Positions 12,555 through 18,421 of a DNA stretch of 32,000 bases are shown here, one piece after another; position 1 is the first letter of the stretch, and each line of letters starts with the position of its first letter. The DNA is from Promethearchaeum syntrophicum (GTDB taxonomy: Archaea > Asgardarchaeota > Lokiarchaeia > Sigyniarchaeales > Promethearchaeaceae). Position numbers and translations under genes: made by a program. Location: assembly GCF_008000775.2 (NCBI RefSeq), contig NZ_CP042905.2:840001-872000 (forward strand), read 5' to 3'. Below the pieces are notes generated by a model that was given only the letters and a program-made list of their open reading frames with translations, made no database searches and was not told the DNA's origin.

Positions 12555-13427
12555 ATGAAGAAATTGAAACTATGGGATTACCACGTGCATACTCAACTCT
12601 GCAATCATGCCAGAGGAAATGTAGAAGATTACGTGAAACAGGCAATTAAAATTGACTTAGGGGAAATTGGCGTAAGTGACCATTTTCCAATGCTTTTATT
12701 GCCCGAAGAGTCGCATGACTTTGCTATGGGTATAAATGAATTTCCAGAATATTTAGACGAATGTAAACGCGCTAAAAATAAATATAAAGATGAAATTACT
12801 GTGAAAATTGCTTCAGAAGTCGATTTTTCTCCCTCGTCATTTTCAGGATACAGAAAGCTTGTGTCCCCATATTTAGAAACTTTGGATTACATTATCGGGT
12901 CAATACATATAATTAAAATTCCTGAAACGGAAACATTTGCTATTGATGGACCAATTGCAAATGAGAAATTCAACCTTTTTGGAGAAGATAGAATTTTTAT
13001 TGCTTATTACAATGACCTTATTCGAATGGTTAAGAATGGATCGGATTTTTATAATATTGTAGGACATTTGGATTTACCAAAAAAATATGGGAATTTTTTA
13101 GGAGAATCGGAAAAAATTTGGAAAAAAATAGATGTCTTACTTGATTTAATCAAAGTTAAAGAATTAGTAGTTGAAATTAATCATTCCGGTTATTATAAAC
13201 CTGTTGGAATCCAATATCCAGATGATAAAATAATACGAGAGTTAGTCAAAAGAGAAATTCCAATAGTTTTAGGATCTGATTCACACTATCCGAAATATCT
13301 TGCCTTTAATTTTGAAAAAACACTTTCCAAATTAAAAAGAATGCAATTTGAAGAGAAAACTCAAGTTAATTTGTGTAAATTCTCAAAGAGAGAAAAAACT
13401 CTTATTAAATTGGACTCAGTTATCTGA
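12555..13427 (+). CDS. PHP-domain phosphoesterase (histidinol-phosphatase HisJ-like family)
   Basis: N-terminal DYHVHTQLCNHA motif, later GVSDHFP, IGSIHI, VGHLDLPKKYG and LGSDSH metal-ligand-like motifs. Both the motifs and the ~290-aa length are typical of HisJ-type PHP phosphatases. Confidence 0.7.
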   Translation: MKKLKLWDYHVHTQLCNHARGNVEDYVKQAIKIDLGEIGVSDHFPMLLLPEESHDFAMGINEFPEYLDECKRAKNKYKDEITVKIASEVDFSPSSFSGYRKLVSPYLETLDYIIGSIHIIKIPETETFAIDGPIANEKFNLFGEDRIFIAYYNDLIRMVKNGSDFYNIVGHLDLPKKYGNFLGESEKIWKKIDVLLDLIKVKELVVEINHSGYYKPVGIQYPDDKIIRELVKREIPIVLGSDSHYPKYLAFNFEKTLSKLKRMQFEEKTQVNLCKFSKREKTLIKLDSVI

Positions 13428-15188
13428 TTTTATTAGGTTTTTTTTAAATTCATTAAAATCCGACTCATTAAAGGACATCTTAAAATAATTTTTAAGATTT
13501 TCTTGATAATAGCATTTCAATTCTTTAAAAGTGCATTTTTCTAGTAATTTCACATAATTCAGACGCATTAAAACTTCTTTTTTATAGGGTCTTTTTGCAT
13601 TAATGAACACTATAGAGCTGAAAAATTCTTTAACTTCTGGAAAATTTAAAACTACCCAAGTAAAGAAGCATTCCATCAAATTTTCAAAGAAAAGATAGTA
13701 ACTCGTATCATCTAGTATCACTGTTTTATCATTTTGAGGTTTAATTAAACAGAAATTAAGTTTTTTGTAGAAACCTGAAACACCAATTTTATATGGTTTA
13801 AAAGTATATTCTCCAATTCCAAATATAGAAAAAAGAGGTTTCTCATGGTAAACTTTTGATTTTCTTGCGTTAAATTTATCCAAATTTTTATTTAAATAAT
13901 TCCATAGTTTTGGAGCCTTTTCTTCCAATAATTTGGTATCTTGCCCGAGCTTGTGTTGTGTAATTATTATTTTATAACGACTTTTTTTAGCAATTTTGAC
14001 TTGTAAATCCGAGGATTTTAGAAATGGATAGAGAAATTTTTTTTCTAGTTCAACTTCTTCATCATTTCCATTAAGTAAAAATCCTTTCTGATCATAATGT
14101 AAAACCATTACTTTAGACAAATCATGTTTAACACCATGTCTCCATATTTTGGGAGATTTTCCTTCCAACCATTTGTAATTCATGTAATTATCAATATTCG
14201 AAACAAATTTATTATCAACCCACCCAAAGGTACTGCATTTTGAATTATCTATATTTTCATTAAATGGTTGTTTTTTGCATATATATTCTGACGATTCACC
14301 AAAATGTGCAAAAAAAAGGGACCCATGAGCATTAATGTGAAAAATCTTTTGAAAATTCGTTCCTAATGCATAAATTTCAGACAAATTAATGGAAGATCTA
14401 CGATGTTCTTTCAATATTTTTTGTATTACCGTATCCTTCAATAAAAATGCGATTTTCCCACTCAATCCGCTTTTCATCAGATTTTGAAGTAAATTTATCA
14501 TTATATATTCAGCAATATCAAAATTACTTTTCCCGGTTAATGCATCTAATCCTTTTAATCCCATAAAATTTGATTTCTTAGGTGCATTTGAAGAATCTAA
14601 TTTAGATAATTCTGTATTTGTAATCCAAGGGGGATTACCAATAATTAAAAGTTCCTTTTTTGAATTCTTCTCTATTTTCTTAAAGATATCTAAATATTCA
14701 GAAGAGAAGATGTTAAATCGGTAGAAATTAATTTCAGCTTGAAAATTTAATTCAGACTTCAATTTAATTATATTTAATTTAAAAATCCATTCATATTTCG
14801 GCTGTATATCAACGCAATATATTATTTTTAATTTAGAAAAAGTTCTCAAAGCAGATATGATAAAATTTCCTTCTCCACAAGTTGGTTCCATTAAAATTTC
14901 TGGATTACAATCCTTTTTTTGTAAATACAAACAAATTTTAAGTGAAAAATCTAGTGGAGTTTGAAAGTCTCCAAGATCTTGATTTGAACATATTTCTTTT
15001 TTTTTATTATTTAGTAAATCTAAGAGAAAAACTCGGAATTCATTCAGATCTTTTTCAGATCGAAAAAAATTGTTTATGTTAGTCTTCTTTTTTAGTTCCT
15101 TGTTTATATCTTCAAGAGTTTTCTTATATTTTAAAAAATTATCAACCATATTCAAATTTTCATTGAGAAAATAAACTGAAAAAGGCAT
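13416..15188 (-). CDS. N6-adenine-specific DNA methyltransferase (gamma class, TaqI/Eco57I-like) with a C-terminal target-recognition region
   Basis: Motif order DLGDFQTPLDF, then SAM-binding motif I MEPTCGEGNFI, then catalytic motif IV IIGNPPWI. The C-terminal ~300 aa resembles TaqI-type specificity domains (FLYPFLKSSDL..., KIGVSGFYKKLNF, DDTSYYL). The 3' end overlaps the convergent PHP gene by 12 nt. Confidence 0.85.
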   Translation of the reverse strand: MPFSVYFLNENLNMVDNFLKYKKTLEDINKELKKKTNINNFFRSEKDLNEFRVFLLDLLNNKKKEICSNQDLGDFQTPLDFSLKICLYLQKKDCNPEILMEPTCGEGNFIISALRTFSKLKIIYCVDIQPKYEWIFKLNIIKLKSELNFQAEINFYRFNIFSSEYLDIFKKIEKNSKKELLIIGNPPWITNTELSKLDSSNAPKKSNFMGLKGLDALTGKSNFDIAEYIMINLLQNLMKSGLSGKIAFLLKDTVIQKILKEHRRSSINLSEIYALGTNFQKIFHINAHGSLFFAHFGESSEYICKKQPFNENIDNSKCSTFGWVDNKFVSNIDNYMNYKWLEGKSPKIWRHGVKHDLSKVMVLHYDQKGFLLNGNDEEVELEKKFLYPFLKSSDLQVKIAKKSRYKIIITQHKLGQDTKLLEEKAPKLWNYLNKNLDKFNARKSKVYHEKPLFSIFGIGEYTFKPYKIGVSGFYKKLNFCLIKPQNDKTVILDDTSYYLFFENLMECFFTWVVLNFPEVKEFFSSIVFINAKRPYKKEVLMRLNYVKLLEKCTFKELKCYYQENLKNYFKMSFNESDFNEFKKNLIKSDN

Positions 15189-15249: not shown

Positions 15250-15981
15250 ATGTTTCGGATTCCCGAAAGGAAACATAGTAACAAGATTATAGAGAATTTA
15301 CTCTATTTTTCTGAGCTACAAATGTTAGATTGCAATATGTATATCCTAAAAGATGACGTTGGAGGATTAACTCTAATTGATTTGGGAAATGGATTATCAA
15401 TGAAACCTTTTATCGCATCTCTTGAGCAACTTGGTTTAAATCCCAAAAACATATCAAAAATACTTATCACGCATGAGCATCTTGATCATATAATGGGGAT
15501 TTACCCAATAATGGAATTATTAAAAAATAATCCTCCCGAAATTTTCGCTCATCCATATACTGCAGAATTATTGGAAGAAGGTGATGAAAAAAAAGTTGTT
15601 CCTCCGATGTTTGGAGCATCTCCAAAAACTTTTGGATTAACTATTGTTCCTATTAAAAATGTAACCCGGATTAATGAAAATGATGAAATTAAAATAGGAA
15701 CATTTAATTTAAGGGTCATCTATACTCCAGGTCATAGTAAAGGGTCAATCTCTTTTTATGAACTGAATAATAAAATATTATTTCCTGGTGATGTAGTTTT
15801 TCCTCATGGTTCTTTTGGACGTTATGATTTTCCAGGATGTTCCTTGAAGGATCTAAAAAATTCTATTAATAGATTGGCTGATTTAGATACAAATATGCTA
15901 TGTTCTGGTCATATGCCCCCGGTTGAAAAGGATGCCAAATCTCAAATCGCGAATTCTAAAAAAAATATAAATTGGATGTAG
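15250..15981 (+). CDS. MBL-fold metallo-hydrolase
   Basis: HxHxDH motif (ITHEHLDH), then TPGHSKGS, FPGD and a late GH, as in glyoxalase II-like beta-lactamase-fold hydrolases. Confidence 0.85.
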   Translation: MFRIPERKHSNKIIENLLYFSELQMLDCNMYILKDDVGGLTLIDLGNGLSMKPFIASLEQLGLNPKNISKILITHEHLDHIMGIYPIMELLKNNPPEIFAHPYTAELLEEGDEKKVVPPMFGASPKTFGLTIVPIKNVTRINENDEIKIGTFNLRVIYTPGHSKGSISFYELNNKILFPGDVVFPHGSFGRYDFPGCSLKDLKNSINRLADLDTNMLCSGHMPPVEKDAKSQIANSKKNINWM

Positions 15982-16061: not shown

Positions 16062-16123
16062 TTGGAAAGTGCAAAAATGGATAGGGGTGTATAGTTCTGG
16101 CGATTTTGGAAAGTGCAATAATG
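16062..16123 (+). repeat. Duplicated 18-nt translation-start segment; the upstream copy opens a 10-codon mini-ORF
   Basis: TTGGAAAGTGCAAAAATG (16062-16079) and TTGGAAAGTGCAATAATG (16106-16123) match at 17 of 18 nt, 44 nt apart. The first copy reads MESAKMDRGV-stop (16062-16094). The second is the start of the longin-like gene (MESAIMFKG...). Confidence 0.6.
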
Positions 16124-16567
16124 TTTAAAGGTACAAATTTAATAGAAAAGCAATTTTATTCTACAGATGACGTTTTAGATAAAAACATTCGAAATAGCCT
16201 TTTGCAAGCAATATCTGGTCTAGCAGCTAATGCTTTCAACGATGAAATCAGAAGTTTCACATTGGGGGATTTTTCCATTATTTTAATGACTCAAGTATTA
16301 TCTGATCCTAATCAAATTAATAATCCATCATACACTCCTTCTTTTCAGGACACTCTTTTGATGTTTTGCATCTGCGAAAAGAATACAGATGAGAGCGCAA
16401 TTCAAAAAGGAATGGCTGATGCCCTTTTTCAATTTCAAAACAGGTATTCTCTTAATGATATCTACGCGAAGAAAAAAAAGAAGTTTAGTAATTTTACAAA
16501 ACGACTAGATAATATTTTCAAAGATCTCATCTTGAAATCTGAAGATCGGTTTAAACTGTTGTTTTAA
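16106..16567 (+). CDS. Longin-like small protein, paralog A (hypothetical)
   Basis: 153 aa and a clear paralog of the 17963-18421 product: DEIRSFTLGDFSIILMTQ vs DDIQKFTLGTYTIVLLTQ, CICEKNTDESAIQKGMADAL vs CIVNKNTDIDWLRKAMKNTL, and KSEDRFKLLF vs KKEDRFRNVF. The element order is beta-beta-alpha-beta-beta-alpha-alpha. The TTG start at 16106 is supported because MESAIMFK aligns with KMAILEV of the paralog. Confidence 0.6.
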   Translation: MESAIMFKGTNLIEKQFYSTDDVLDKNIRNSLLQAISGLAANAFNDEIRSFTLGDFSIILMTQVLSDPNQINNPSYTPSFQDTLLMFCICEKNTDESAIQKGMADALFQFQNRYSLNDIYAKKKKKFSNFTKRLDNIFKDLILKSEDRFKLLF

Positions 16568-16687
16568 TTGCAATTTCACACATAAATGAACAAGAAAAGT
16601 AACTTCACGGTAAGATTTTTCCATTTTTATTTTTTACGAAGAATCTTCTGATATTTTTTATATAGAAATTGAGAGAATCTAATTTAG

Positions 16688-17926
16688 AGGTGTTTAAAAA
16701 TTAGTTCCAATCTTAGTGCTGAAGCAAAATTAGCCTATCAAGCCTACCTAGATGCAAATGGCATTGATGAAAGGATTGAAAAACTACAAATTTTTCTAAG
16801 ACTTGTTCCAAAACATAAAGCTACTGAAAAAATTGTTGCTTTAAACAAAACTAAACTTTCTAAGCTGAAAGATGAAAAAGAAAAGAAAATAAGACAAGTA
16901 AAAACCATTGCTTCTGCCATAGATGATCCTTTTACATTTAAACATGAACCCGAAACAATACAATTAGTCATGATCAGTGATTTTTTTGAACATTTTGGGG
17001 TGGGAAAAACAACTTTACTTCAAAATTTAAGTGGAGGATTAAAACATGCTAAACCCGGTGTGTTCACAGCAGAACCGCTCTTAGGTATATATACTTGGAA
17101 CCACATCAAATTTCAATTGGTTGAAGAACCCGCTTTGCATGATTCTCAATTTTTAAATCGGATAATGGTTGGAGTAAGACGTGCAGATATCTTAGCACTA
17201 GTTATTGATTTATCAAGAGATCCAATAAAGCAAATTGATAATATTCTTTCAATTTTGGATAATTATCATATTTATCTGAATAGGAATCCCCCGCAAATAA
17301 AAATAGAACGAACTGGATCAGGAGGGATTCAGATTTTCTTCCTCTCAGCTGAAGCAAAAGAGTGTGAACATTTAAGTGATTTTATCAAAGATATGGTTAA
17401 AGCTTGGGGAACTATAAATGCTTCGGTTAAAATTTATGAAAAAGTCTCTATTGAAGAAATTGAAATTGCATTCTCACGAAATGCCTCTTTTAAAAAAGCA
17501 TGCATAATCGCAACTAAAGCAGATCTACCAAATACCAAAGAAATATACAAAAAATTAATATCTTTCTTGAAGAAATCAAATAAATTAAAAATTTCATCTT
17601 ATCCTGTAGCCATTACTTATAATGAAAATGGTGAAGAAATTAGAAAAGGCTTAGATAATTTTGCTCTTGATATTCTAAATAAATTAAATCTTATTCGGAT
17701 TTTCACAAAATCCAAGAAGGGAGTTGCAGAAAAACCCTTGATTTTATCACAAGATTGTACTGTGGGAGATGTAGCTAAAGACATTCATAAAGATCTATTT
17801 GATACATTCAAATTTGCATACATTTATAGAGAAGTAGAAGGAGAAATTACAAAAAGACGAATTCGCGCTGGAATTAATTTCAAAGTTAATAATTTTGACG
17901 TAATTGAAATTTTTTCACGAGTTTAA
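16688..17926 (+). CDS. Divergent DRG-family (Obg-like) GTPase with C-terminal TGS domain; start codon unresolved
   Basis: The frame is open from 16688, after TAG at 16685. The upstream part encodes the DRG N-terminal signature (VPKHKATEKIVALNKTKLSKLKDE, compare TQKNKATE..LG.LKAKLAKLR). Downstream come the P-loop FGVGKTTLL, the G2-like VFTAEP, ADILALVID, the DRG insert IYLNRNPPQIKIERTGSGGIQI, TKAD, and the TGS domain (LIRIFTKSKKG...CTVGDVAKDIHKDL...FDVIEIF). The first canonical start in frame is ATG at 16970. Confidence 0.8.
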   Translation, partial: RCLKISSNLSAEAKLAYQAYLDANGIDERIEKLQIFLRLVPKHKATEKIVALNKTKLSKLKDEKEKKIRQVKTIASAIDDPFTFKHEPETIQLVMISDFFEHFGVGKTTLLQNLSGGLKHAKPGVFTAEPLLGIYTWNHIKFQLVEEPALHDSQFLNRIMVGVRRADILALVIDLSRDPIKQIDNILSILDNYHIYLNRNPPQIKIERTGSGGIQIFFLSAEAKECEHLSDFIKDMVKAWGTINASVKIYEKVSIEEIEIAFSRNASFKKACIIATKADLPNTKEIYKKLISFLKKSNKLKISSYPVAITYNENGEEIRKGLDNFALDILNKLNLIRIFTKSKKGVAEKPLILSQDCTVGDVAKDIHKDLFDTFKFAYIYREVEGEITKRRIRAGINFKVNNFDVIEIFSRV

Positions 17927-17962
17927 TTTTCAGATTCTTAGGAAGAAAAACATAGAAAAAAC

Positions 17963-18421
17963 TTAGATAAATACATTTCGAAATCGATCTTCTTTTTTAT
18001 AAATTAAATCTCCTAATATTTTATCTACTCTTTCATTAAAAATTGTAAATTTCGACCTATTGTGATTGATAATATCATATGAAGTAAAACGGCTCGTAAA
18101 ACTAGAAAGAGTATTCTTCATAGCTTTTCTTAACCAATCAATATCCGTATTCTTATTTACAATACAATAAATATGAATATAAGATTTTTTTTCTGATTTC
18201 TCTGTAAATGGAATATTTTGAGTGAGTAAAACAATTGTATATGTTCCAAGTGTGAATTTTTGAATATCATCTTCCAAATTTTCTGCCAGAATTTCTATTC
18301 CGTGAATTAATCCCTCTTTATATTTATCATCATTAATTATACTGGAATTATAATATCTTCTAGATAATAATACTTCCGATTGATGTGAAATAATAACTTC
18401 TAATATTGCCATTTTAATCAC
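17963..18421 (-). CDS. Longin-like small protein, paralog B (hypothetical)
   Basis: 152 aa, paralogous to the 16106-16567 product (alignment given there). It is convergent with the GTPase gene, with 36 nt between the two stop codons. Confidence 0.6.
   Translation of the reverse strand: MIKMAILEVIISHQSEVLLSRRYYNSSIINDDKYKEGLIHGIEILAENLEDDIQKFTLGTYTIVLLTQNIPFTEKSEKKSYIHIYCIVNKNTDIDWLRKAMKNTLSSFTSRFTSYDIINHNRSKFTIFNERVDKILGDLIYKKEDRFRNVFI

What the first reader, a model, noticed from the sequence alone, without database searches (positions are those of the whole stretch)
16062..18421. Two paralogous longin-like proteins bracket a divergent DRG/TGS GTPase: candidate GTPase-plus-regulator module
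The products of 16106-16567 (+) and 17963-18421 (-) are clear paralogs, with shared FTLG..(S/T)I.L.TQ, C.NKNTD and EDRF motifs. Their predicted beta-beta-alpha-beta-beta-alpha-alpha order is the longin-type layout. They immediately flank a DRG-family GTPase on both sides. In eukaryotes, longin and roadblock domains are the recurrent platforms that regulate or anchor GTPases (SRalpha-SRbeta, Mon1-Ccz1, TRAPP, DENN, Ragulator-Rag; bacterial MglB-MglA). The known DRG partners are DFRP proteins, not longin domains. I do not recognise a longin-DRG-longin arrangement as a described system. It could be an archaeal GTPase/GEF-like or ribosome-associated module. The functional link is inferred from adjacency alone.
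Basis: partly seen in the sequence, partly recalled or inferred. Interest (0 to 1): 0.75.

Follow-up and report, generated by a model that had tools for sequence, protein, structure and literature searches.

The report
Longin-like partner gene of DRG-like GTPase
In Loki-type Asgard archaea, a small unannotated longin-fold protein is almost always encoded directly in front of a divergent DRG-type (ribosome-associated) GTPase, which points to an undescribed GTPase-plus-partner pair; the second copy that brackets the GTPase in this window is an extra found only in this genus.

Summary
A (16097/16106-16567, +) and B (17963-18412/18421, -) are true paralogs (33% identity, E 2e-27). They flank a 408-aa DRG-like GTPase, whose real ORF starts at ATT 16700, not ATG 16970. 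A's AlphaFold model has the longin strand/helix order, and its Foldseek hits in the PDB are almost all longin domains. Neither A nor B matches any Pfam or NCBIfam family.

The conserved unit is the pair, not the triad. In 50 of 56 species-level genomes (Promethearchaeota, Loki-type Asgard), an A ortholog lies directly upstream of the DRG-like gene on the same strand (median gap 24 bp). This holds across three different flanking architectures and two deep clades. Three look-ups that started from the GTPase found the same upstream gene.

B occurs only in the window's genus, is convergent to the GTPase, is missing from this spot in a close relative, and is under purifying selection. In other Loki genomes an Arf/Ras-like small GTPase occupies B's position.

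The GTPase keeps the DRG architecture, with Rbg1/Rbg2 as best matches, but has a non-canonical G3 motif and, in this clade, a truncated switch II.

Best reading: A is the dedicated partner or regulator of this GTPase. No physical interaction was tested. I found no description of this pairing in the literature searched.

The parts
16097..16567 (+). Gene A: longin-like protein (156 aa from CTG 16097; 153 aa if TTG 16106). It is the conserved upstream partner gene of the DRG-like GTPase.
   Evidence: ORF. The N-terminus MAILE is conserved in relatives and the CTG start is conserved within the genus. AF2 model pLDDT 80, pTM 0.75, with longin order. Foldseek PDB hits are almost all longin domains, with a few roadblock proteins lower down. 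No Pfam or NCBIfam hit. Orthologs lie upstream of the DRG-like gene in 50 of 56 genomes.
16568..16699 (+). Spacer between A and the GTPase. At 132 bp it is unusually long (median 24 bp elsewhere). It is AT-rich, with oligo-T runs at 16617-16636, TTTATATA at 16657-16664 and a Shine-Dalgarno-like AGAGGTG at 16686-16692.
   Evidence: Sequence read directly. Gap comparison across loci. Promoter and terminator roles are not tested.
16700..17926 (+). DRG-like GTPase, 408 aa, ATT start. Layout: N-terminal helical (HTH-like) region, Obg-type G domain with S5D2L-type insert, C-terminal TGS. G1 is FGVGKTT, G3 is EEPA instead of DxxG, switch II is shortened by 5 residues, and G4 is TKAD.
   Evidence: Translation. 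Pfam. Motif alignment over 54 orthologs. phmmer against the PDB gives Rbg2 and Rbg1. AF2 model pLDDT 78, with the P-loop and switch I below pLDDT 50. Foldseek best hits are Rbg1 and Rbg2 at full length. dN/dS 0.04-0.10.
17963..18421 (-). Gene B: genus-specific paralog of A (149 aa from ATG 18412; 152 aa from GTG 18421). It is convergent to the GTPase gene.
   Evidence: 33% identity to A, E 2e-27. Only 10 close homologs were found, all 69-90% identical. Its nearest non-B relatives are clade-1 A proteins at 39-41%. dN/dS 0.11-0.14, so it is a functional gene. It is not at this position in L014.
15250..15981 (+). Metallo-beta-lactamase-fold gene. It is the conserved immediate upstream neighbour of A in clade 1 and is listed as context only, not as part of the module.
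   Evidence: Pfam Lactamase_B in relatives. Immediately upstream of A in most clade-1 loci; separated from A by intervening genes in L011. In many clade-2 loci it lies about 5 kb away on the opposite strand.

Best explanation
A two-gene module is conserved in Loki-type Asgard archaea (phylum Promethearchaeota). A ~150-aa longin-fold protein (A) is encoded directly upstream of, and probably co-expressed with, a divergent DRG-family GTPase.

Shown: the fold prediction, the DRG architecture, the degenerate G3/switch II, and the conserved gene pair.

Inferred: A binds the GTPase as its dedicated partner. It would stabilise the GTPase and/or control its nucleotide state or localisation, as longin and roadblock platforms do for small GTPases and as DFRP proteins do for eukaryotic DRGs. 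The GTPase would act on the ribosome or tRNA through its HTH and TGS domains, as Rbg1 does. Its altered switch II (G3 Gly replaced by Ser or Ala; in the window's clade also Asp to Glu and a 5-residue deletion) would make it dependent on a partner.

B is a genus-specific duplicate of A, kept under purifying selection. It may form a heterodimeric longin platform with A or act as an alternative subunit. It is not part of the ancestral module.
For: Fold: the AF2 model of A has the longin order bbabbbaa(a). Most of the 50 Foldseek PDB hits listed are longin domains, including several that contact GTPases or GTPase-like domains: AP sigma/mu, Mon1-Ccz1, TRAPP, VAMP7, COPI zeta, SR-alpha SRX and Fuzzy-Inturned. 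A few LAMTOR/MP1-p14 roadblock proteins and one Loki Rag-like GTPase appear lower in the list.

Gene pair: A lies directly upstream of the DRG-like gene on the same strand in 50 of 56 GTDB species-representative loci, with gaps of 13-176 bp and a median of 24 bp. The pair survives three different flank architectures:
- MBL-A-DRGL-EamA/B
- MBL-A-DRGL-Arf-like
- prenyltransferase-FolD-A-DRGL-helicase or TPR
It also survives divergence down to 35-40% identity between the two clades. Three look-ups that started from the GTPase each found a 151-153-aa gene with no Pfam hit upstream.

GTPase: DRG architecture. G3 is DMPS or EEPA instead of DxxG, and clade 1 lacks the GxGNG switch II segment. The P-loop and switch I are modelled at low confidence.

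Selection: both the GTPase and B are under purifying selection.

Precedent: eukaryotic DRGs need DFRP partners for stability and GTPase stimulation (bioRxiv 10.64898/2026.05.13.724932).
Against: - No interaction was modelled or measured. A multimer prediction was not possible with these tools.
- In L011, L012 and L016, A sits directly next to an Arf/Ras-like GTPase with no DRG-like gene. In L021, L057 and L059, A stands alone. A can therefore persist without an adjacent DRG-like gene.
- The most conserved part of A, the C-terminal DL..K.EDRF tail, is also kept in distant subfamilies whose downstream gene is a coiled-coil protein rather than a GTPase. That motif is therefore not specific to the DRG-like partner.
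- In the window the A-GTPase spacer is 132 bp and carries oligo-T and TATA-like elements, so co-transcription here is uncertain.
- A lacks the beta1-beta2 arginine finger and GP motif of known GAP longins.
- The 42 clade-2 genomes share extended synteny, so they are not fully independent observations.
Confidence: 0.6

Rival explanations
1. A's real client is the Arf/Ras-like small GTPase found at the same locus in other Lokiarchaeia. This would be the classical longin plus small-GTPase pairing, and the DRG-like gene would be only an operon neighbour.
For: A-DRGL-Arf-like order in L008, L010, L015, L018, L019 and L020. A lies directly next to the Arf-like gene, with no DRG-like gene, in L011, L012 and L016. 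Known longin partners are small GTPases (PDB hits).
Against: No Arf-like gene at the locus in any of the 42 clade-2 genomes or in the window's genus. No Arf-like hit anywhere in the 32-kb window. The A-DRGL pair is far more widespread than A-Arf-like.
Confidence: 0.15
2. The pair is conserved synteny or co-regulation only. A and the GTPase would work in the same process (for example translation or stress) without forming a complex, or A would serve a generic role shared by its whole family.
For: The C-terminal EDRF motif is shared with subfamilies that have non-GTPase neighbours. Rare fusions of the domain to TIR and PRTase-CE effectors suggest a generic adaptor or sensor domain. Clade-2 genomes share long synteny blocks.
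Against: The gaps are very short (median 24 bp) and the pair is strictly co-directional, while all other neighbours change between clades. Gene order in archaea rarely survives this much divergence without a functional link (established comparative-genomics knowledge).
Confidence: 0.2
3. One reading: an obligate three-part module in which two longin paralogs (A and B) bracket and jointly regulate the GTPase, as a Mon1-Ccz1-like heterodimer.
For: A and B are paralogs and both are under selection. The triad recurs in L001-L007. Longin regulators are often heterodimers of paralogs (PDB hits).
Against: B is found only in one genus. It is convergent to the GTPase. It is separated from the GTPase by a 246-aa gene in L007. 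It is absent from the locus in L014. Forty-plus genomes have the pair without any B.
Confidence: 0.15
4. The GTPase is a pseudo-GTPase or scaffold that no longer cycles nucleotide, at least in the window's clade, and A is its structural partner rather than a regulator.
For: The first P-loop Gly is lost. G3 is EEPA, with neither Asp nor Gly. Switch II has a 5-residue deletion. The P-loop and switch I have pLDDT below 50. Precedent: the AAGAB pseudoGTPase bound to a longin-fold sigma adaptin is among the fold hits (9ddt).
Against: The P-loop GKT(T/S) and the G4 TKxD motif are invariant, and the protein is under strong purifying selection. Clade 2 keeps Asp in G3 and a DRG-like switch II.
Confidence: 0.2

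Closest known systems
DRG-DFRP complexes (yeast Rbg1-Tma46, Rbg2-Gir2; human DRG1-DFRP1, DRG2-DFRP2)
   Same: A DRG-architecture GTPase (HTH, G domain with S5D2L insert, TGS) with a dedicated small partner. Rbg1 and Rbg2 are the best sequence and structure matches of the window GTPase. DFRPs stabilise DRGs and stimulate their GTPase activity.
   Different: The partner here has a longin fold, not a DFRP domain, and has no Pfam hit. The GTPase has a non-canonical G1 and G3 and is only about 22% identical to Rbg1. The literature read here states that archaea have a single DRG and names no archaeal partner.
Longin-domain GEF and GAP platforms for small GTPases (Mon1-Ccz1, TRAPP, DENN, Fuzzy-Inturned; FLCN-FNIP, GATOR1 NPRL2/3, C9orf72-SMCR8)
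   Same: The same predicted fold, and these are the top structural neighbours. Paralog pairs such as A and B mirror the heterodimeric longin platforms.
   Different: The clients of those platforms are Ras-superfamily small GTPases, not an Obg/DRG-class GTPase. A is a single-domain protein. It has no conserved Arg or GP motif in the beta1-beta2 loop that defines the GAP longins.
Roadblock/MglB-MglA and Ragulator-Rag modules, and the Asgard LAMTOR1-like + Rab-like + DENN operon (Liu et al., bioRxiv 10.1101/2020.10.19.343400)
   Same: A small platform-domain gene of the roadblock/longin superfamily encoded next to a GTPase gene in prokaryotes. An Asgard operon of this general kind has been described.
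   Different: A has the longin topology, not the roadblock topology (no N-terminal helix). The GTPase is DRG-type. Tran et al. note that MK-D1 small-GTPase genes generally do not sit in operons with roadblock or longin genes (PMC10933270).
SR-alpha SRX (longin) with SR-beta (Arf-like GTPase)
   Same: A longin domain bound to a GTPase in the translation/translocation context. SRX (2fh5_A) is among the fold hits. An Arf-like GTPase gene joins the locus in several Loki genomes.
   Different: No SRP-receptor NG domain, and no sequence similarity to SR-alpha. The conserved neighbour here is DRG-like, not Arf-like.

Membership tests
Longin domain (structural class) | beta-beta-alpha-beta-beta-beta-alpha-alpha topology: a five-stranded sheet between helix 1 and helices 2-3 | tested here: met
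   AF2 model of A: E2-7, E10-16, H26-43, E50-53, E56-64, E83-91, H96-113, H116-120, H124-141. Most Foldseek PDB hits are longin domains, with TM 0.45-0.61 and E from 2.5e-3. This rests on a predicted structure only, and the E-values are modest.
Longin domain (sequence families: Pfam Longin, Clat_adaptor_s, Sybindin, etc.) | Significant match to a curated longin-family profile | tested here: not met
   No Pfam family for A. B has only sub-threshold hits to unrelated families. No NCBIfam family for either.
Roadblock/LC7 (MglB, LAMTOR) | alpha-beta-beta-alpha-beta-beta-beta order with an N-terminal helix | tested here: not met
   The model starts with two strands and has no N-terminal helix. LAMTOR and MP1 hits rank below the longin hits.
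GAP longins (FLCN, NPRL2, SMCR8 type) | Conserved arginine finger and GP motif in the beta1-beta2 region (PMC12290439) | tested here: not met
   The conserved positions over 63 family members include no Arg or Gly-Pro in residues 6-12. The conserved arginines are R29, R113, R133 and R148.
DRG family GTPase | Domain architecture: N-terminal HTH, Obg-type G domain with S5D2L insert, C-terminal TGS | tested here: met
   Pfam MMR_HSR1, MMR_HSR1_Xtn and TGS (stronger in clade 2). Full-length alignment to Rbg1. Foldseek best hits are Rbg1 and Rbg2 over about 400 columns, far ahead of YchF.
DRG family GTPase | Canonical G motifs: G1 GxPxxGKS, G3 DxPG, G4 NKxD | tested here: not met
   G1 is (Y/F/H)xxPGxGKT in clade 2; clade 1 also lacks the Pro (window: FEHFGVGKTT). 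G3 is DMPS in clade 2 and E(E/M)P(A/S) in clade 1. G4 is TK(G/A)D. Clade 1 lacks 5 residues of switch II. Pfam MMR_HSR1_Xtn scores 28.2 bits in the window protein, below the 35.2 cut-off.
DRG family GTPase | Single-copy archaeal ortholog of eukaryotic DRG1/2, as opposed to an extra paralog | not testable with these tools
   The whole genomes could not be scanned for a second, canonical DRG. The low similarity to Rbg1 (120 bits for clade 2, 57-65 bits for the window) and the restriction to one phylum suggest a paralog.
DFRP (DRG family regulatory protein) | DFRP domain that wraps the TGS and G domains of DRG | tested here: not met
   No Pfam hit of any kind for A, and only sub-threshold hits to unrelated families for B. 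The predicted fold is longin. A functional analogy remains possible.
Anti-phage defence system component | Match to a PADLOC model or a typical defence neighbourhood | tested here: not met
   No PADLOC hit for A, B or the GTPase. Only rare distant family members are fused to TIR or PRTase-CE.

The most novel reading that the evidence does not exclude
Lokiarchaeia-type Asgard archaea have a second, lineage-specific DRG paralog whose catalytic switch has degenerated. It has become dependent on a longin-fold subunit that controls its nucleotide state or ribosome association. This would be the first longin-domain regulator of an Obg/DRG-class (translation-associated) GTPase. In Promethearchaeum, duplication of the longin subunit (A and B) would be creating a heterodimeric platform of the Mon1-Ccz1 kind.
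Probability: 0.35. Interest if true: 0.8.

Novelty: new variant of a known kind. Interest (0 to 1): 0.6.

Why it matters
Longin and roadblock platforms are thought of as regulators of Ras-like small GTPases in membrane traffic. Their expansion in Asgard archaea is read as a prelude to the eukaryotic endomembrane system. A conserved pairing of a longin-fold protein with a DRG-type, ribosome-associated GTPase would extend that regulatory logic to the translation-factor-related Obg/DRG class.

It would also give the first candidate partner for an archaeal DRG-like protein. Eukaryotic DRGs need unrelated DFRP partners, and the literature read here names no archaeal partner.

Tran et al. point out that Asgard GTPases and their regulators are hard to match because they rarely share operons. 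This pair would be one of the few that can be matched from the genome.

The genes occur in cultured strains' relatives (Promethearchaeum, Lokiarchaeum ossiferum), and the system has only two or three small soluble proteins. The hypothesis is therefore directly testable by co-expression, GTPase assays and ribosome binding.

Tried and rejected
1. Pseudo-complex AF2 model. A GS-linked A+GTPase sequence aligned with unpaired homologs was misaligned by MAFFT, with GTPase rows placed on the A segment, so I did not submit it. No multimer prediction was obtained, and the tool reports no PAE in any case.

3. Finding a canonical DRG in the same genomes. The third protein search, with a DRG-like profile, returned 572 hits but listed only the 120 best, all from within the family.

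4. Defence-system reading. There are no PADLOC hits for A, B or the GTPase, so I rejected it for this locus.

5. The 139-aa ORF at 6238-6657 as a third family member. hhalign gave probability 0.1%, so I rejected it.

6. Asgard-wide distribution. Submitter labels (Thor, Odin, Hod, Hermod, Heimdall) are internally inconsistent; for example, the 'Hod' L039 and 'Odin' L043 proteins are 93% identical. Most records are filed as Promethearchaeota, which is the Loki phylum in NCBI taxonomy. I therefore claim only Loki-type Asgard.

7. Literature searches for a longin-DRG pairing found nothing. The supplementary asCOG tables were not available.
Full report
**What is at the locus.**
The window is about 30% G+C. 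Its proteins match MAGs filed as Promethearchaeum, Promethearchaeia or Lokiarchaeota, so it comes from a Loki-type Asgard archaeon. The finding covers three genes.
- Gene A is listed as ORF 16106-16567 (+).
- Gene B is listed as ORF 17963-18421 (-).
- Between them lies a GTPase gene. The ORF finder lists it as 16970-17926, but its reading frame is open from 16688 and encodes a conserved DRG-type N-terminus.

Relatives call a 408-aa product that begins MSSNL. In the window the corresponding codon is ATT at 16700, preceded by AGAGGTG. A probably starts at CTG 16097 (MAILE..., with CTG also in three congeners). B probably starts at ATG 18412.

**Checking the observation.**
A and B are 33% identical over their full length, E 2e-27.

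B is a working gene, not a decaying copy: dN/dS among its orthologs is 0.11-0.14. The GTPase gene gives 0.04-0.10, and that calculation includes the region upstream of ATG 16970.

**The small proteins.**
Neither A nor B has a significant hit in Pfam or NCBIfam, and neither has any PADLOC hit.

An AlphaFold2 model of A, built from a 37-sequence alignment, has pLDDT 80 and pTM 0.75. Its order is strand-strand-helix-strand-strand-strand-helix-helix-helix, which is the longin order, not the roadblock order.

Foldseek against the PDB returns almost only longin domains. These include AP sigma and mu N-termini, Mon1 and Ccz1, TRAPP subunits, VAMP7, COPI zeta, SR-alpha SRX and Fuzzy/Inturned. Roadblock proteins such as LAMTOR appear lower in the list. 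The scores are modest (E from 2.5e-3, TM 0.45-0.61), so the fold call is supported rather than proven.

B was not modelled. Its fold follows from its homology to A.

The family is small. A profile search of 1.84 billion representative proteins found 170 with E <= 0.001.

The positions conserved over 63 members lie in strand 1 (AILE), Y18, helix 1, the FxLG turn, the CI..KNTD strand, F110/N112/R113, F127/F130/R133 and the C-terminal DL..K.EDRF tail. That tail is the most conserved segment, yet it is modelled with low confidence.

There is no conserved arginine or GP motif between strands 1 and 2. That feature defines the GAP longins FLCN, NPRL2 and SMCR8 (PMC12290439).

**The GTPase.**
Evidence for DRG membership by architecture:
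- Pfam finds MMR_HSR1, the DRG-specific MMR_HSR1_Xtn (below its cut-off) and TGS.
- phmmer against the PDB gives only yeast Rbg2 and Rbg1, at 6e-17 and 1.7e-14.
- A clade-2 ortholog aligns with Rbg1 end to end at 1.6e-33.
- The AF2 model (pLDDT 78) matches Rbg1 and Rbg2 over its full length (2e-23), far ahead of YchF.

Its motifs, however, are not canonical:
- The first P-loop glycine is lost (xxxPGVGKT[S/T] in clade 2, FGVGKTT in the window).
- G3 is DMPS in one clade and E(E/M)P(A/S) in the window's clade, instead of DxPG.
- G4 is TK(G/A)D.
- The window's clade has lost five residues of the GxGNG switch II segment.

The P-loop and switch I are the least confident parts of the model. GKT and TKxD are invariant across the family. 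Nucleotide binding is therefore plausible, but normal switching is doubtful.

**Genomic context: the key result.**
Close relatives (L001-L007) repeat the A-GTPase-B arrangement. More distant ones do not.

A scan of one genome per GTDB species found 56 loci. I annotated them with profiles for A/B, the GTPase, the upstream MBL gene and an Arf-like GTPase. The results:
- In 50 of the 56 loci, an A ortholog lies directly upstream of the DRG-like gene on the same strand, with gaps of 13-176 bp and a median of 24 bp.
- L016 has A followed by an Arf/Ras-like gene.
- L021, L057 and L059 have A alone.
- L034 ends at the contig edge.
- L058 is a B copy.

Two further loci fetched earlier, L011 and L012, also have A followed directly by the Arf-like gene.

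Three look-ups that started from GTPase proteins each showed a 151-153-aa gene with no Pfam hit immediately upstream.

The pair persists while its surroundings change:
- MBL-A-GTPase-(B or EamA) in the window's genus.
- MBL-A-GTPase-Arf/Ras-like GTPase in Harpocratesius, Lokiarchaeum ossiferum and others.
- Prenyltransferase-FolD-A-GTPase followed by a convergent helicase or TPR gene in a second clade of 42 species.

The two clades are only 36-46% (GTPase) and 35-42% (A) identical to each other.

Two caveats apply. The 42 clade-2 genomes share long synteny, so they are not independent. The phylum labels given by submitters are unreliable: proteins labelled 'Hod' and 'Odin' are 93% identical. 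I therefore claim the pair only for Promethearchaeota, the Loki phylum of NCBI taxonomy.

**Where B fits.**
- B has only 10 close homologs, all 69-90% identical.
- Its nearest non-B relatives are clade-1 A proteins, at 39-41% identity.
- It evolves faster than A: 73-87% against 91-94% identity within the genus.
- It is convergent to the GTPase.
- In L007, and probably in L058, a 246-aa membrane protein gene lies between B and the GTPase.
- In L014, whose A is 90% identical to the window's, the GTPase is followed directly by the EamA gene with no B.

The bracket is thus a lineage-specific elaboration. It occupies the place where other Loki genomes have the Arf-like GTPase gene.

**Most likely mechanism.**
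Shown:
- a longin-fold protein family;
- a DRG-architecture GTPase with a degenerate switch;
- a tightly conserved co-directional gene pair.

Inferred:
- A is the dedicated partner of this GTPase.
- It stabilises the GTPase and/or sets its nucleotide state or location. This would be a functional analog of DFRP for eukaryotic DRGs, which confer stability and stimulate GTPase activity, and of longin platforms for small GTPases.
- The GTPase acts on ribosomes through its HTH and TGS domains, as Rbg1 does.
- B may pair with A as a heterodimeric platform or replace it under some conditions.

I put the functional A-GTPase partnership at about 0.75 and the overall statement at 0.6. The specific activity (GEF, GAP, chaperone or anchor) is open.

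Points against:
- A sometimes occurs with only the Arf-like gene, or alone.
- The EDRF tail is shared with distant subfamilies whose conserved neighbour is a coiled-coil protein.
- The window's 132-bp spacer contains oligo-T runs and a TATA-like box.
- No interaction was modelled.

**Comparison with what is known.**
The closest systems are:
- DRG-DFRP: the same GTPase architecture, but an unrelated partner fold.
- Longin GEF and GAP platforms: the same fold, but a different GTPase class, and the GAP motif is absent here.
- Roadblock/MglB-type and Asgard LAMTOR1-like/Rab-like/DENN operons.
- SR-alpha SRX with SR-beta.

Tran et al. state that MK-D1 small-GTPase genes generally do not share operons with roadblock or longin genes. 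The DRG literature read here says archaea have a single DRG and names no partner for it. None of seven literature queries found a longin-DRG pairing. The asCOG supplementary tables could not be read, so a prior listing there cannot be excluded.

**Open question.**
I could not determine whether these genomes also hold a canonical DRG. The weak similarity to Rbg1 and the restriction to one phylum suggest that the gene is an extra paralog. I estimate this at about 0.8, by inference only.

**Verdict.**
- The real feature is a conserved longin-like plus DRG-like gene pair. It is a new variant of the known longin/roadblock-GTPase theme.
- Interest: 0.6.

Noticed in passing
window 16097-16099 and 16700-16702: Non-ATG start codons. 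A appears to start at CTG (CTG also in L013, L014 and L007; ATG in L001, L008, L019 and L036). The DRG-like gene appears to start at ATT (ATT also in L013; ATG, GTG or TTG in other genomes). Both are preceded by GGTG-type Shine-Dalgarno-like sequences.
   Followed up: partly
window 16062-16074 and 16106-16118: Exact 13-nt direct repeat TTGGAAAGTGCAA, with copies 44 bp apart. The second copy covers codons 4-7 of A, and the first lies in its 5' region. Its function is unknown.
   Followed up: no
window 1093-3498 (+): An 801-aa protein with cysteine-rich N-terminal motifs and repeated winged-helix/PCI domains. It has weak Pfam hits to the UFM1 E3 ligase (UFL1) and to DDRGK, so it may be a UFMylation-related eukaryotic-signature protein.
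   Followed up: no
window 4067-4813 (-): A 248-aa protein that hits ThuA and, weakly, the IFT52 GIFT domain.
   Followed up: no
window 13416-15188 (-): A 590-aa type II DNA methyltransferase (PADLOC MTase_II, 3.6e-115) lies between the PHP and MBL genes. It is present in the window's genus (window, L001, L007, L013) but absent from the same synteny block in L008 and L010. No partner restriction enzyme was looked for.
   Followed up: partly
window 6238-6657 (+): A 139-aa ORF with no Pfam hit that looks by eye like a small roadblock/longin-type protein. It is not related to the A/B family by hhalign (probability 0.1%). Its fold was not tested.
   Followed up: partly
L074 159-1082; L076 566-1571: A distant subfamily of the A/B family (P0105, P0117) keeps the C-terminal DL..(S/T)PE(E/D)RF motif. 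It is followed by a conserved coiled-coil gene (M..IHMPS(E/D)DE...) instead of a GTPase.
   Followed up: partly
P0078 (445 aa) and P0080 (683 aa), from the representative search: Rare fusions of the A/B-type domain to a TIR domain and to TPR plus a PRTase-CE effector domain. These are architectures typical of conflict or signalling systems.
   Followed up: partly
L063 (DATKTW010000100.1); L039 versus L043: L063 is filed under a 'Nanopelagicaceae bacterium' MAG but carries the Asgard locus, so the contig is probably mis-binned. MAGs labelled Hodarchaeota (L039) and Odinarchaeota (L043) have 93% identical DRG-like proteins, so the submitter taxonomy is unreliable.
   Followed up: partly
L036 2070-3593 (+): In clade-2 genomes, the conserved block upstream of the pair includes a 507-aa actin-family protein fused to C-terminal zinc ribbons. 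It sits next to a CBS-domain gene and a prenyltransferase gene.
   Followed up: no
L017 6841-7658: The DRG-like gene downstream of A is split into three frame-shifted fragments. This is either a pseudogene or an assembly error in a co-assembled MAG.
   Followed up: no
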